In this document: piece after piece, positions 39,930 to 41,241 of the stretch
Layout: the number at the start of each line of letters is the position of its first letter
Position numbering within the stretch: the first letter of the stretch is position 1
Origin: a virus
Virus genome (UHGV): UHGV-1451962
Reading direction: 5' to 3' (one strand)
DNA length: 64,000 nt
The notes under the pieces: generated by a model
Databases searched by the model: none
Seen by the model: the letters and a program-made list of their open reading frames with translations, nothing else
Told to the model about the DNA's origin: nothing
Made by a program: the position numbers and the translations under genes

Positions 39930-40013
39930 TGGTACCAGAAGCGGGACTCGAACCCGCACGCATAAAGCGAAAGTTTTTGAGACTTCTTTGTCTACCAATT
40001 CCAACATTCTGGC
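39930..40013 (-). tRNA. tRNA-Leu (anticodon CAA), class II
   Basis: Acceptor GCCAGAA/TTCTGGT, T-arm GCGGGTTCGAGTCCCGC, loop CTCAAAA, long variable arm, encoded CCA. Confidence 0.7.
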
Positions 40014-40390
40014 AAATAAGGTTTTCCCTTGTAAGGAGGATAACCTAAAACCCAAGCTAGCTTTAGTCCTTTTTTAATCAGAGGTTGACCATTCTCATTA
40101 GCATTTCTCAGAAGCCTTGATTTTCTACTTCTCGTAGTAGAAGGAGTGGAGATGAGTAATGCTCCGCCGTCTCTCCTATATAACACCTTGCATTTTAATG
40201 ACGCAAAGAAACATTTTACTATGCGGCTATCAACCTGTTTACCCATAGCTAACGACTTAGGTCGCCCTTATGTCTGGTCACGCAGTATCGTCGCTTCAAC
40301 AGTTGCCAGACTAATTCTCCCGATACCCGGATACCCAGTTCAGCATTATCTGGGGTACTCATTTATTTTACGTCTGTATGATAAGACTAA
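40014..40390 (-). ncRNA. Candidate structured non-coding RNA(s) within tRNA array
   Basis: ~375 nt, noticeably higher GC than surroundings, no credible ORF and no tRNA T-arm signature. Confidence 0.3.
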
Positions 40391-40466
40391 TGGTGGCTCG
40401 CCTGGGATTTGAACCCAGCACATCTTGCTTAAAAGGCAAGTGTTCTACCTAATGAACTAGCGAACC
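40391..40466 (-). tRNA. tRNA-Lys (anticodon TTT)
   Basis: Acceptor GGTTCGC/GCGAGCC, anticodon arm CTTGC-CTTTTAA-GCAAG, T-arm CTGGGTTCAAATCCCAG, CCA. Confidence 0.75.
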
Positions 40467-40468
40467 AT

Positions 40469-40544
40469 TGGAGCTAGCGAAAAGACTTGAACTTTTAACC
40501 TGCGGTTTACAAGGCCGCTGCACTACCTATTGTGCTACACTAGC
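40469..40544 (-). tRNA. tRNA-Thr (anticodon TGT)
   Basis: Acceptor GCTAGTG/CGCTAGC, loop CTTGTAA, T-arm AAAAGTTCAAGTCTTTT, CCA. Confidence 0.7.
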
Positions 40545-40604
40545 AAATACAAGATACTTTTTTTTGATTAAAAGTCAAAAAATAAATTGCTATGAGTATC
40601 TTTA

Positions 40605-40678
40605 TGGAGCAAGTAACGGGAATCAAACCCGCATCGCTGGAGTGGAAGTCCAGAGTTCTATCATTAAACTATACCTGC
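40605..40678 (-). tRNA. tRNA-Gly (anticodon TCC)
   Basis: Acceptor GCAGGTA/TACTTGC, anticodon arm CTGGA-CTTCCAC-TCCAG, T-loop TTTGATT, CCA. Confidence 0.7.
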
Positions 40679-40739
40679 TTATTGTTGATAGTTTTAGTAA
40701 AAACAGTATCACCACGTGAAGGTAACTATCTTGATACCG

Positions 40740-40828
40740 CGGGGCAAACTGGATTTGAACCAGTGAAACTATTGCTAGTTTGCTTGTTTTCAAGACAAGT
40801 GCAATAAGCCAAACTCTGCCATTGCCCC
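40740..40828 (-). tRNA. tRNA-Ser (anticodon TGA), class II, CCA not encoded
   Basis: Acceptor GGGGCAA/TTGCCCC, loop CTTGAAA, long variable arm, T-arm CTGGTTCAAATCCAG. Confidence 0.65.
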
Positions 40829-41013
40829 ATATTAAGGAAGGTGGAGGTAGGGCCTCACCTATAGCTGCTCCTCAATTATTCCCCTACTTTTCTGACTCTA
40901 CACCCGCAGGCACGATACGTATTATACATCCGTTCAAAGTTTATTGTCATGTCAGCAAGACAAGATGCCTTTCACATCAGCTATTTCCTTTTGTTATCTA
41001 TTATAATTCTGCT

Positions 41014-41090
41014 TGGTACGCCTGAAGGGACTCGAACCCCTGGCTTACTGCTTAGAAGACAGTTACTCTATCCAGTTGAGTTACAGACGC
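41014..41090 (-). tRNA. tRNA-Arg (anticodon TCT)
   Basis: Acceptor GCGTCTG/CAGGCGT, anticodon arm ACTGT-CTTCTAA-GCAGT, T-arm AGGGGTTCGAGTCCCTT, CCA. Confidence 0.75.
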
Positions 41091-41155
41091 GTATCAGTAA
41101 ACTCAAGTTTATTGTTATCTTTAAAACTAATAGTAAAGAGTATCAATTTTAAAGA

Positions 41156-41241
41156 TGGTGTGGGCGATGGGACTCGAACCCACAAGCTAGATTAGCAGCG
41201 CATTTTAAGTGCGATATGTTTTCCTATTTCATCACGCCCAC
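41156..41241 (-). tRNA. tRNA-Leu (anticodon TAA), class II
   Basis: Acceptor GTGGGCG/CGCCCAC, loop CTTAAAA, variable-arm hairpin GCTA..TAGC, T-arm GTGGGTTCGAGTCCCAT, CCA. Confidence 0.7.

What the first reader, a model, noticed from the sequence alone, without database searches (positions are those of the whole stretch)
39930..41241. tRNA array 1: seven tRNAs interleaved with GC-rich non-tRNA segments
Leu(CAA), Lys(TTT), Thr(TGT), Gly(TCC), Ser(TGA), Arg(TCT) and Leu(TAA) lie on the minus strand downstream of a consensus promoter at 41330. Most decode A/T-ending codons, consistent with compensating for the AT-rich phage codon usage. The interspersed ORF-free segments (40014-40390, 40829-41013) recall the small stable RNAs embedded in the T4 tRNA cluster.
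Basis: partly seen in the sequence, partly recalled or inferred. Interest (0 to 1): 0.45.

Follow-up and report, generated by a model that had tools for sequence, protein, structure and literature searches.

The report
Phage tRNA operon carrying structured RNAs
A gut phage's seven-tRNA operon also carries two non-coding segments, one of which belongs to a previously uncatalogued structured RNA family that recurs inside the tRNA arrays of unrelated gut phages, and the operon sits directly upstream of a Ro60-like RNA-binding protein and RNA-repair genes.

Summary
All seven tRNAs are real and lie at the stated coordinates, the promoter exists, and the two long spacers are ORF-free with 41% GC, against 18-32% in the other spacers.

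spB (40829-40998) belongs to an RNA family that is not in Rfam 15. I found it in nine independent phage lineages, almost always in tRNA arrays on the tRNA strand and often flush against a tRNA. Covariation supports its structure: 26 of 51 pairs change on both sides, and 0 of 500 shuffles reach that.

spA (40014-40390) is non-coding and is kept in every strain. It has no relative outside this phage lineage, and the evidence for structure is only marginal.

The array runs straight into a DUF2828/DUF7788 gene whose predicted fold matches Ro60/TROVE, followed by nucleotidyltransferase, phosphoesterase, exonuclease and RNA-ligase genes. This tRNA-array-to-Ro60-like order is conserved in most relatives. 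Their arrays also carry ROOL, tmRNA, drum, pistol and a YrlA-like RNA.

Neither spacer passes the Y-RNA membership tests, so a Ro60-partner role is an inference. The codon-compensation idea is only partly supported.

The parts
41330..41358 (-). sigma-70-type promoter-like site (TTGAAA-17-TATAAT with extended TG) upstream of the array
   Evidence: Two similar sites lie further upstream (41692-41664 and 41607-41579). The leader motif recurs many times in related phages.
41156..41241 (-). tRNA-Leu(TAA)
   Evidence: 53.1 bits.
41014..41090 (-). tRNA-Arg(TCT)
   Evidence: 63 bits.
40829..40998 (-). spB: member of a structured RNA family not in Rfam 15 that is associated with phage tRNA arrays. It starts 15 nt after tRNA-Arg and ends flush with the 5' end of tRNA-Ser.
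   Evidence: The covariance models hit this interval at 209-212 bits. Homologs occur in 8 other lineages. Covariation is shown, and the placement table is.
40739..40828 (-). tRNA-Ser(TGA)
   Evidence: 54.3 bits.
40605..40678 (-). tRNA-Gly(TCC)
   Evidence: 64.1 bits.
40469..40544 (-). tRNA-Thr(TGT)
   Evidence: 65.5 bits. In strain L083 it is replaced by an endonuclease-like gene.
40391..40466 (-). tRNA-Lys(TTT)
   Evidence: 66.2 bits. It is identical in all strains.
40014..40390 (-). spA: a 377-nt non-coding segment bounded exactly by tRNA-Lys and tRNA-Leu(CAA). It is present at 375-379 nt in every strain and is a candidate lineage-specific structured RNA.
   Evidence: No homolog was found outside the lineage.
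39930..40013 (-). tRNA-Leu(CAA), 55 nt upstream of the Ro60-like gene
   Evidence: 50.9 bits.
38351..39874 (-). Ro60-like RNA-binding protein (Pfam DUF2828 + DUF7788; helical domain plus vWA domain). It is co-directional with the array, and no terminator-like site was detected between them.
   Evidence: Pfam. AF2 model pLDDT 76.8. The top 11 Foldseek PDB hits are Ro60/TROVE. phrog_850 'RNA-binding protein', E 8e-113. Terminator scan.
35913..36809 (-). nucleotidyltransferase (weakly RlaP-like)
   Evidence: Pfam RlaP 21 bits, below the cutoff of 23. phrog_388 nucleotidyltransferase, E 1e-16.
35154..35900 (-). metallo-phosphoesterase
33349..34179 (-). RNase T / DEDD-type 3'-5' exonuclease
31778..33055 (-). 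RNA ligase
   Evidence: Pfam RNA_ligase 27.4 bits. phrog_968, E 1.8e-45.

Best explanation
The region is one phage tRNA operon. A strong sigma-70-type promoter probably drives a polycistronic transcript holding seven genuine tRNAs and two embedded non-coding RNAs.

spB is a discrete structured RNA of about 170 nt. Its closing helices enclose an invariant GAAAG-loop hairpin and a central arm of variable length, and a 3' hairpin follows. It belongs to a family that recurs in the tRNA arrays of diverse gut phages. Because its ends coincide with tRNA ends, ordinary tRNA processing would excise it: RNase P at the downstream tRNA's 5' end and 3'-end maturation of the upstream tRNA. This excision step is inferred.

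spA is most likely a second, lineage-specific structured RNA released the same way, but this is much less certain.

The array is the front of a conserved block that continues into a Ro60-like RNA-binding protein and RNA-repair enzymes. The most likely role of the embedded RNAs is therefore in phage tRNA/RNA surveillance or repair during infection, alongside the phage's own tRNA supply. The functional link is inferred from conserved gene order only.

The confidence of 0.6 is for the anatomical and processing statement. My separate estimate for the Ro60-partner role is 0.2-0.25.
For: tRNAs and promoter.

spB family: model R1 found L123 in an ORF-free gap of a tRNA array. Pattern scans plus model R3 then found L153, L154, L155, L157, L160, L161 and L162. 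Pattern matches without model support had no tRNAs nearby.

spB covariation: 26 of 51 pairs change on both sides, against 12.9+-2.1 in shuffles (0/500) and 5-11 in slid controls. 91% of cells are paired, against 77% in shuffles. RNAalifold run on its own recovers helices 2, 3 and 7, with 13 of its 21 predicted pairs covarying.

spB placement: 7 of 9 lineages have same-strand tRNAs within 3 kb and none has opposite-strand tRNAs. In 5 lineages the element lies within 15 nt of a tRNA, and the tRNA identity differs each time.

Within-lineage test using the structure predicted from the window sequence alone: in spB 2-3 substitutions disrupt pairs against 6.5+-1.7 expected (P 0.008-0.04); in spA 2-3 against 5.6+-1.7 (P 0.03-0.10).

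spA: it is kept at 375-379 nt in all 13 distinct strain sequences while endonuclease genes insert elsewhere in the array. It has one long-range U-A to C-G compensatory pair.

Context: Ro60/TROVE fold; RNA ligase, nucleotidyltransferase, phosphoesterase and exonuclease genes. Same-strand tRNAs lie within 3 kb upstream of the Ro60-like gene in 55 of 70 viral relatives and in most MAG homologs at >=47% identity. Precedents from the literature: phage phiLo Ro60 with upstream Y-like RNAs (PMC12135203), and ROOL/GOLLD near tRNA islands (PMC12286853).
Against: Single-sequence folding energies are unremarkable, with z = -0.41 for both spacers.

spA has no homolog outside one phage species-level cluster. 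Its covariation statistics are weak (64 of 500 shuffles). Its low divergence (1.7%) is shared by the whole array block, including the AT-rich short spacers and the 64-aa gene (0.8-3%), so it does not by itself show selection on spA.

The spB family alignment was fitted to the model, which inflates the pair counts. Four members score only 20-27 bits.

There are no expression or processing data. Only 3 of the 9 spB-family lineages are known to have a Ro60-like gene within the DNA held, and the other loci are too short to tell.
Confidence: 0.6

Rival explanations
1. The embedded RNAs are Y-RNA-like partners of the adjacent Ro60-like protein. On this reading spB (and perhaps spA) binds the DUF2828 ring and tethers or gates it, as bacterial Y RNAs do for Rsr. 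The flanking tRNA, or a tRNA-like module, would stand in for the tRNA-like domain of YrlA.
For: The adjacent protein has a Ro60/TROVE fold. Y-like RNAs are encoded directly upstream of Ro60 in bacteria and in phage phiLo (PMC4201824; PMC12135203). In L154 a YrlA-like permuted tRNA-like core (35.9 bits) sits directly 5' of the spB-like element, in the position taken by a real tRNA in the window, L155, L157 and L162. The window, L123 and L153 carry both the RNA and a Ro60-like gene. tRNA arrays lie upstream of the Ro60-like gene in most relatives.
Against: The GNCGAA(N)G / CGAA Ro-binding motif is absent from the array. Neither spacer contains a tRNA-like domain. The Rfam YrlA and Y_RNA models do not hit the window even at E<=10. 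80 viral and 43 MAG relatives that have the Ro60-like gene lack any spB-like hit in the DNA held, so the RNA is not an obligate neighbour of the protein.
Confidence: 0.22
2. The spacers, spA especially, are functionally inert transcribed spacers. On this reading their conservation reflects recent common ancestry and homogenisation of the tRNA block by homing-endonuclease-driven gene conversion, and their GC content reflects their origin rather than RNA structure.
For: Low divergence is regional, not specific to spA. There are mosaic patches of 17-20% divergence, and three kinds of endonuclease-like ORFs insert into the array in strain variants. Folding z-scores are -0.41. spA has no distant homolog.
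Against: For spB this reading is effectively excluded by nine lineages with covariation and varying flanking tRNAs. For spA, the length is constant, the indels fall in columns predicted to be unpaired, 11 of 13 single changes at paired positions keep pairing, there is one double-compensatory pair, and fewer pairs are disrupted than expected. GC is 0.41, against 0.18-0.32 in the other spacers.
Confidence: 0.2
3. The spacers are decayed protein-coding genes (small ORFs or homing-endonuclease remnants), or host DNA captured together with tRNA genes.
For: Relatives carry small ORFs between their tRNAs. Strain variants carry endonuclease-like ORFs in the array.
Against: Six-frame peptides from both spacers hit nothing outside the strain cluster, and the endonuclease proteins have no remnants in the window. 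No bacterial or archaeal genome in GTDB carries the invariant spA stretch. Frame-breaking indels are tolerated.
Confidence: 0.03
4. The spacers are cis-regulatory elements: an internal promoter in spB and an internal terminator in spA that subdivide the operon.
For: There is an 11/12 promoter-like site at 40950-40921 inside spB and a terminator-like hairpin at 40208-40186 inside spA.
Against: The spB -10 box is not conserved. It reads TGTAAT in several strains and is deleted in L088, while the hairpin it overlaps is kept through compensating changes. The number of promoter-like and terminator-like sites in the region is within the shuffle expectation. The spA hairpin has a weak U-tail, and a tRNA and the Ro60-like gene lie downstream on the same strand.
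Confidence: 0.05

Closest known systems
T4 species 1 and 2 small stable RNAs (rnaC, rnaD) in the T4 tRNA cluster
   Same: They are non-tRNA RNAs embedded in a phage tRNA cluster on the tRNA strand and flush against a tRNA. A homing endonuclease gene (segB) sits in the same cluster, and their function is still unknown (PMC9697503). GC is raised relative to the surroundings (0.43-0.49 against 0.36).
   Different: There is no sequence similarity. T4 rnaC ends in a tRNA-like T-arm, which spA and spB lack. T4 has no Ro60-like gene next to its cluster. spA is much longer (377 nt, against 119-139 nt).
ROOL, GOLLD and drum RNAs (phage/prophage structured RNAs near tRNA islands)
   Same: They are structured, protein-free candidate RNAs of unknown function, typically encoded next to tRNA islands in phages (PMC12286853). 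ROOL, drum and also a pistol ribozyme and tmRNA occur in the tRNA arrays of this phage's relatives or of other spB-family carriers.
   Different: No Rfam model for these families matches spA or spB, even at E<=10. spB (120-185 nt) is far smaller than ROOL (~580 nt) or GOLLD (~800 nt). Its architecture differs: a GAAAG-loop hairpin, a variable arm and a 3' hairpin.
Bacterial and phage Y RNAs (YrlA/YrlB, phiLo Yrl1/2) with Ro60
   Same: They are non-coding RNA genes immediately upstream of, and co-directional with, a Ro60-fold protein gene, and are closely associated with tRNA-like structure and RNA-repair genes.
   Different: There is no GNCGAA/CGAA motif and no internal tRNA-like domain, and the YrlA or Y_RNA models give no hit. 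The protein is a very divergent Ro60-like family (DUF2828/DUF7788) with no Pfam TROVE signal. Many Ro60-like loci lack the RNA.

Membership tests
tRNA (Rfam RF00005) | Cloverleaf scoring above the gathering threshold, with an identifiable anticodon | tested here: met
   All seven score 50.9-66.2 bits against a gathering score of 29. ARAGORN agrees on coordinates and anticodons.
tRNA (hidden, split or intron-containing) inside spA/spB | Any tRNA-like or tmRNA-like fold within the spacers | tested here: not met
   ARAGORN with -i, -ps90 and tmRNA modes finds nothing. The Rfam tRNA model gives no hit in the spacers at E<=10.
YrlA-type Y RNA | Gene adjacent to a Ro60 ortholog | tested here: met
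   spA ends 140 nt, and spB about 950 nt, upstream of a gene whose model matches Ro60/TROVE structures. The protein is Ro60-like by fold only.
YrlA-type Y RNA | GNCGAAN0-1G (CGAA) Ro-binding motif in the 5' strand of the terminal stem | tested here: not met
   No match lies within 39875-41360, and window-wide counts equal chance.
YrlA-type Y RNA | Internal permuted tRNA-like domain and a match to Rfam RF02553 | tested here: not met
   No YrlA hit in the array at E<=10. A sub-threshold YrlA-like core does occur next to the spB-like element of L154 (35.9 bits, gathering score 69).
YrlA-type Y RNA | Physical binding to Ro60 | not testable with these tools
   This needs RIP or EMSA with the DUF2828 protein.
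ROOL / GOLLD / drum / OLE | Match to the family covariance model | tested here: not met
   No hit in the window at gathering score or at E<=10. ROOL is detected in relative L017 and a sub-threshold drum match in L157 (41.1 bits, gathering score 43), so the method does work on such loci.
T4 rnaC / rnaD | Sequence homology to T4 species 1 or 2 RNA | tested here: not met
   nhmmer of both T4 RNAs against the window gives no hit at E<=10.
T4 rnaC / rnaD | Accumulation as a stable processed RNA | not testable with these tools
   No expression data are available.
spB-like tRNA-array RNA family (defined here) | Conserved 5' block GGAAR-N-CUG-W-UGUGAAAGGCA-W-CUUG, closing helix, 3' hairpin, and location in a tRNA array on the tRNA strand | tested here: met
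   The window element scores 209 bits with R3. Eight other lineages score 20-153 bits. Covariation is shown, and placement.
Ro60 / TROVE (for the adjacent protein) | Helical-repeat ring plus C-terminal vWA domain with a MIDAS motif | tested here: met
   The top 11 Foldseek PDB hits are full-length Ro60/TROVE, E 7.6e-8 to 1.6e-5. A DTSSS motif is visible in the sequence and invariant in the alignment (D307, T308, S309, S311). 13 of 24 homologs give a weak VWA_2 match.
Ro60 / TROVE (for the adjacent protein) | Sequence-level match to Pfam TROVE or to PDB Ro60 sequences | tested here: not met
   No TROVE hit at E<=10 in 24 homologs. phmmer and hmmsearch against PDB sequences find no Ro60.

The most novel reading that the evidence does not exclude
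The spB-like family may be the RNA subunit of a new, divergent Ro60-like (DUF2828) ribonucleoprotein that phages use to survey or repair tRNAs. It would be a Y-RNA analogue that has lost the canonical CGAA motif and its internal tRNA mimic. Instead it would be made physically fused to a real tRNA, or in L154 to a YrlA-like tRNA mimic, within the array transcript. A second and more speculative reading is that spB mimics the 3' end of 16S rRNA: it contains GUAGGGGAA, CCUGCGG, ACCUCC and UCCUUA (post-hoc P about 0.01-0.02). It could then act as a decoy for factors or nucleases that recognise that region.
Probability: 0.2. Interest if true: 0.75.

Novelty: new member of a known kind. Interest (0 to 1): 0.52.

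Why it matters
Phage tRNA arrays are usually read only as codon-supply devices. This case shows that such an array is also a carrier for structured non-coding RNAs. One of them defines a covariation-supported family that Rfam 15 does not contain and that recurs across unrelated gut phages.

The array is also the conserved front end of a Ro60-like plus RNA-ligase repair block. That gives a concrete and testable system for two open questions: what the 'extra' RNAs in phage tRNA clusters do (unanswered since T4 rnaC and rnaD were found), and what the widespread DUF2828/DUF7788 proteins bind.

If the RNA and the Ro60-like protein work together, this would extend Ro60-Y RNA biology to a large group of gut phages. 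It would also link that biology to defence against host nucleases that target tRNAs.

Tried and rejected
1. Known RNA families in the spacers. Rfam at gathering score and at E<=10 found nothing.
2. Hidden, split or intron-containing tRNA or tmRNA. None was found.
3. Thermodynamic signal. z = -0.41 for both spacers, which is uninformative.
4. GenBank phages, 'distant' blastn. Only tRNA-level hits were found.
5. blastn, nhmmer and clustering of GC-rich ORF-free segments across the 80 IMG/VR relatives. No spA or spB homolog was found.
6. Low divergence as proof of selection. I first read 1.6% in spA against 12.6% at fourfold-degenerate sites as purifying selection. I withdrew this once the whole array block turned out to be equally conserved, with mosaic patches.
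7. Decayed-gene or captured-host-DNA origin. No support.
8. Internal promoter in spB. The -10 box is not conserved.
9. Y-RNA motifs. Absent.
10. A partial 'OLE' hit in relative L024. It was not reproduced in a focused search and was dropped.
11. A YrlA hit in L155. It spans two genuine tRNAs and is an artefact.
12. spA homolog searches. These covered a model of its 3' domain (only 18.9-bit hits at GC 0.28, downstream of the Ro60-like gene; judged spurious), four exact-word scans of IMG/VR, one metagenome scan (same lineage only) and one genome scan. All were negative.
13. Homology to T4 rnaC/rnaD. None.
14. Literature on DUF2828. Nothing useful was in the library.
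Full report
**Observation.** ARAGORN finds 17 tRNA genes in the window, all on the minus strand. The Rfam tRNA model scores these seven at 51-66 bits against a gathering score of 29. A TTGAAA-17-TATAAT site with an extended TG lies at 41358-41330. The two long gaps are spA (40014-40390, 377 nt) and spB (40829-41013, 185 nt). They contain no credible ORF. Their GC is 0.41, against 0.18-0.32 for the other spacers and the leader, 0.30 for the window and 0.46-0.51 for the tRNAs.

**What the spacers are not.** No Rfam family matches them, even at E<=10. Relaxed and intron-tolerant ARAGORN finds no tRNA or tmRNA. Folding energies are no better than those of shuffles, with z = -0.41 for each. 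Six-frame peptides from the spacers hit nothing in relatives, and the endonuclease proteins seen in strain variants have no remnants in the window. No GTDB genome carries the invariant spA stretch. The promoter-like site inside spB is not conserved. T4 rnaC and rnaD share no sequence with the window.

**Source and strain variation.** The window comes from a 137-kb scaffold of a human-gut metagenome. The adjacent 507-aa protein sits in a 90%-identity cluster of 71 sequences, and the next homologs are at 71%. I fetched contigs for cluster members and obtained 13 distinct spA and 11 distinct spB sequences. spA is present at 375-379 nt in every strain. Three kinds of ORF insert elsewhere in the array: a PDDEXK_5/NUMOD1 protein, a protein with a weak HNH match and a 127-aa ORF. 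Frame-breaking 2-nt indels rule out the 84-aa ORF in spA.

**A claim I withdrew.** I first took the low divergence of spA (1.6%, against 12.6% at fourfold-degenerate sites of the neighbouring gene) as evidence of purifying selection. That does not hold. The whole array block, including the AT-rich short spacers and a 64-aa gene, is equally conserved (0.8-3%), and it contains mosaic patches at 17-20% divergence. Gene conversion linked to the endonuclease genes could produce this pattern.

**Within-lineage structure tests.** For spA, RNAalifold predicts a structure with one long-range compensatory pair, U-A in the window and C-G in all other strains. Most other changes at paired positions are wobble-compatible, but the shuffle controls are not significant. 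In an out-of-sample check on four new strains, 4 of 5 substitutions at paired positions kept pairing. I also ran a non-circular test that uses only the structure predicted from the window sequence. In spA, 2-3 substitutions disrupt pairs against 5.6+-1.7 expected (P 0.03-0.10). In spB, 2-3 disrupt pairs against 6.5+-1.7 expected (P 0.008-0.04). In spB one hairpin keeps pairing through four transitions, and in L088 through a 10-nt deletion plus a compensating U-to-C change. One pair runs G-C, G-U, A-U across strains.

**spB belongs to a wider family.** A covariance model of the spB strain sequences found nothing in 80 viral relatives. It did give a marginal hit in L123, a MAG contig. That hit lies on the tRNA strand, in an ORF-free gap of a tRNA array, and shows collinear conserved blocks and compensatory changes. 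I turned the shared 5' block into degenerate patterns and scanned IMG/VR. The rebuilt model verified seven further members: L155 (153 bits), L154 (113), L153 (27), L162 (23), L157 (23), L161 (21) and L160 (20). Four pattern matches without model support had no tRNAs nearby.

**Family covariation.** Across the 12 sequences from 9 lineages, 26 of 51 pairs change on both sides while staying paired. Shuffles give 12.9+-2.1 (0 of 500 reach 26) and slid controls give 5-11. 91% of cells are paired, against 77% in shuffles. This alignment was fitted to the model, which favours the structure. However, RNAalifold run on its own recovers helices 2, 3 and 7, with 13 of its 21 predicted pairs covarying, and it suggests a conserved UUGN...NCAAUAA hairpin after the invariant GAAAG-loop hairpin.

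**Family placement.** Seven of the nine lineages have same-strand tRNAs within 3 kb, and none has tRNAs on the opposite strand. The 5' end lies within -6 to +15 nt of a tRNA in the window (Arg), L155 (Lys), L157 (Met) and L162 (Gln). The 3' end is flush with a tRNA in the window (Ser), L154 (Ile) and L157 (Leu). No Rfam family matches any member. spB is therefore a genuine structured RNA of a family not in Rfam 15, and tRNA end-processing would release it. The release step is inferred.

**spA stays unexplained beyond its own lineage.** A model of its 3' domain, nhmmer against all loci, four exact-word scans of IMG/VR, one metagenome scan and one genome scan found only the same phage lineage.

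**Context.** The gene 55 nt downstream of tRNA-Leu(CAA) carries the Pfam domains DUF2828 and DUF7788. Its AlphaFold model has pLDDT 76.8. The model's 11 best PDB matches are all full-length Ro60/TROVE structures, including the Ro60 of Thermus phage phiLo (E 7.6e-8 to 1.6e-5). PHROGs labels the protein 'RNA-binding protein' (E 8e-113). There is no sequence-level TROVE signal. Further downstream lie a nucleotidyltransferase (weakly RlaP-like), a metallo-phosphoesterase, an RNase T-type exonuclease and an RNA ligase. No terminator-like site separates the array from the Ro60-like gene.

**The gene order is conserved.** In 55 of 70 viral relatives, same-strand tRNAs lie within 3 kb upstream of the Ro60-like gene. 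The same is true of most MAG homologs at >=47% identity and of some at 35%, but not of the Akkermansia-associated group. Arrays in these relatives, and in the unrelated phages that carry spB-like elements, hold ROOL, tmRNA, a sub-threshold drum match and a pistol ribozyme. In L154 a YrlA-like permuted tRNA-like core lies directly 5' of the spB-like element.

**Mechanism.**
- Shown: the tRNAs, the promoter-like site, the non-coding nature of the spacers, the spB family and its structure, the Ro60-like fold and the conserved gene order.
- Inferred: co-transcription of the array, excision of the spacers by RNase P and 3'-end processing, stability of the excised RNAs, and any functional tie to the Ro60-like repair block.

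Bacterial and phage Y RNAs are encoded next to Ro60 (PMC4201824; PMC12135203), which makes a partner role attractive. However, spA and spB fail the Y-RNA membership tests: they have no GNCGAA motif, no tRNA-like domain and no model hit. Many Ro60-like loci also lack the RNA. I put the partner hypothesis at about 0.2.

**Codon usage.** GC3 is 0.17. TTA, AAA and AGA are the top codons of their families, whereas GGA, ACA, TTG and TCA are not. Six of the seven anticodons start with U. This fits supply of A-ending codons, but it cannot be told apart from other roles without knowing the host.

**Comparison and novelty.** The closest known things are the T4 rnaC/rnaD RNAs, the ROOL/GOLLD/drum class of tRNA-island RNAs and the Ro60-Y RNA systems. 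The array itself is ordinary. spB adds a new family to the known kind 'structured RNAs embedded in phage tRNA arrays'. The link between a tRNA array and a Ro60-like repair block is a noteworthy piece of context.

Noticed in passing
window 48466-50582 (minus strand): A second array of 10 tRNAs lies here. It includes a tRNA at 49175-49250 that ARAGORN reads with a four-base anticodon 'tgaa' (Rfam tRNA 48 bits) and a tRNA-Ile(TAT). It also has long spacers, one of them moderately GC-rich at about 49600-49800.
   Followed up: no
L083 1206-1835; L084 1790-2173; L092 172-828 (strain variants of window 39875-41360): The array is a hotspot for insertions. A PDDEXK_5+NUMOD1 protein replaces tRNA-Thr in one strain. 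A 127-aa ORF sits between Thr and Lys in others. A 218-aa protein with a weak HNH match replaces Leu(TAA)/Arg in another group. A ~157-nt insertion between tRNA-Leu(CAA) and the Ro60-like gene occurs in L084-L088.
   Followed up: partly
window 40545-40604: This 60-nt AT-rich spacer between tRNA-Gly and tRNA-Thr differs by about 17.5% from all other strains, while its neighbours differ by 0-4%. tRNA-Arg of L084 differs by 19.5%. This looks like mosaic recombination within the array.
   Followed up: partly
window 41693-43571 (minus strand): A radical SAM enzyme (414 aa) is followed by a 218-aa Cys-rich protein full of CxxC/Cxxx repeats. The equivalent protein in strain L101 hits Pfam tSAM_targ_Cxxx_rpt. 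This looks like a radical-SAM enzyme and substrate pair just upstream of the array.
   Followed up: no
L001-L080 (relatives), e.g. L001 4620-4695: 30 of 80 related loci carry a tRNA with anticodon CTA (an amber suppressor, labelled Pyl by ARAGORN), which suggests TAG recoding in the wider phage group. The window itself has none, and its ORFs read through normally with the standard code.
   Followed up: no
L017 1-516 and 2946-3256; L036, L054, L079; L157 1292-1362 and 1980-2084: tRNA arrays of relatives, and of other phages carrying spB-like elements, hold a ROOL RNA (299 bits), tmRNA genes, a pistol ribozyme (37.8 bits, above its gathering score) and a drum RNA match just below its gathering score.
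   Followed up: partly
L154 7484-7593 (minus strand): A sub-threshold YrlA match (35.9 bits, gathering score 69) shows the permuted tRNA-like core (T-arm, stem, D-arm) but no GNCGAA motif. It sits directly 5' of the spB-like element and overlaps it by 14 nt.
   Followed up: partly
window 40829-41013 and about 40032-40039: spB contains GUAGGGGAA, CCUGCGG, ACCUCC and UCCUUA, which are identical to pieces of the conserved 3' end of 16S rRNA (helix 45 and the anti-Shine-Dalgarno sequence), though in a different order. The shuffle P is 0.01-0.02, and only 0.2% of the phage's 185-nt windows reach the same count. spA carries CCUCCUUA, but its overall count is not significant.
   Followed up: partly
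window 41579-41692 and related loci: Two further TTGAAA-17-TATAAT sites lie upstream of the 64-aa gene. The A-rich promoter/leader motif of the array recurs many times in related phage loci, which suggests a phage-wide promoter class.
   Followed up: no
L011 5728-5938; L012 5334-5472: Two relatives have a GC-rich, ORF-free segment directly upstream of their Ro60-like gene. The two segments are similar to each other but not to spA or spB, and they are not recognised by Rfam.
   Followed up: no
window 46668-47900: A 410-aa protein gives a weak match, below the Pfam cutoff, to the N-terminal domain of the major tropism determinant (Mtd_N). It may be the target of a diversity-generating retroelement.
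   Followed up: no
L108-L151 (GTDB MAG contigs): The closest MAG-binned homologs of the Ro60-like gene (69%) lie on 147-149-kb contigs assigned to Oscillospiraceae and Eubacterium. The neighbouring gene in the window has an SLH domain. Together these are a weak hint of a Clostridia host.
   Followed up: no
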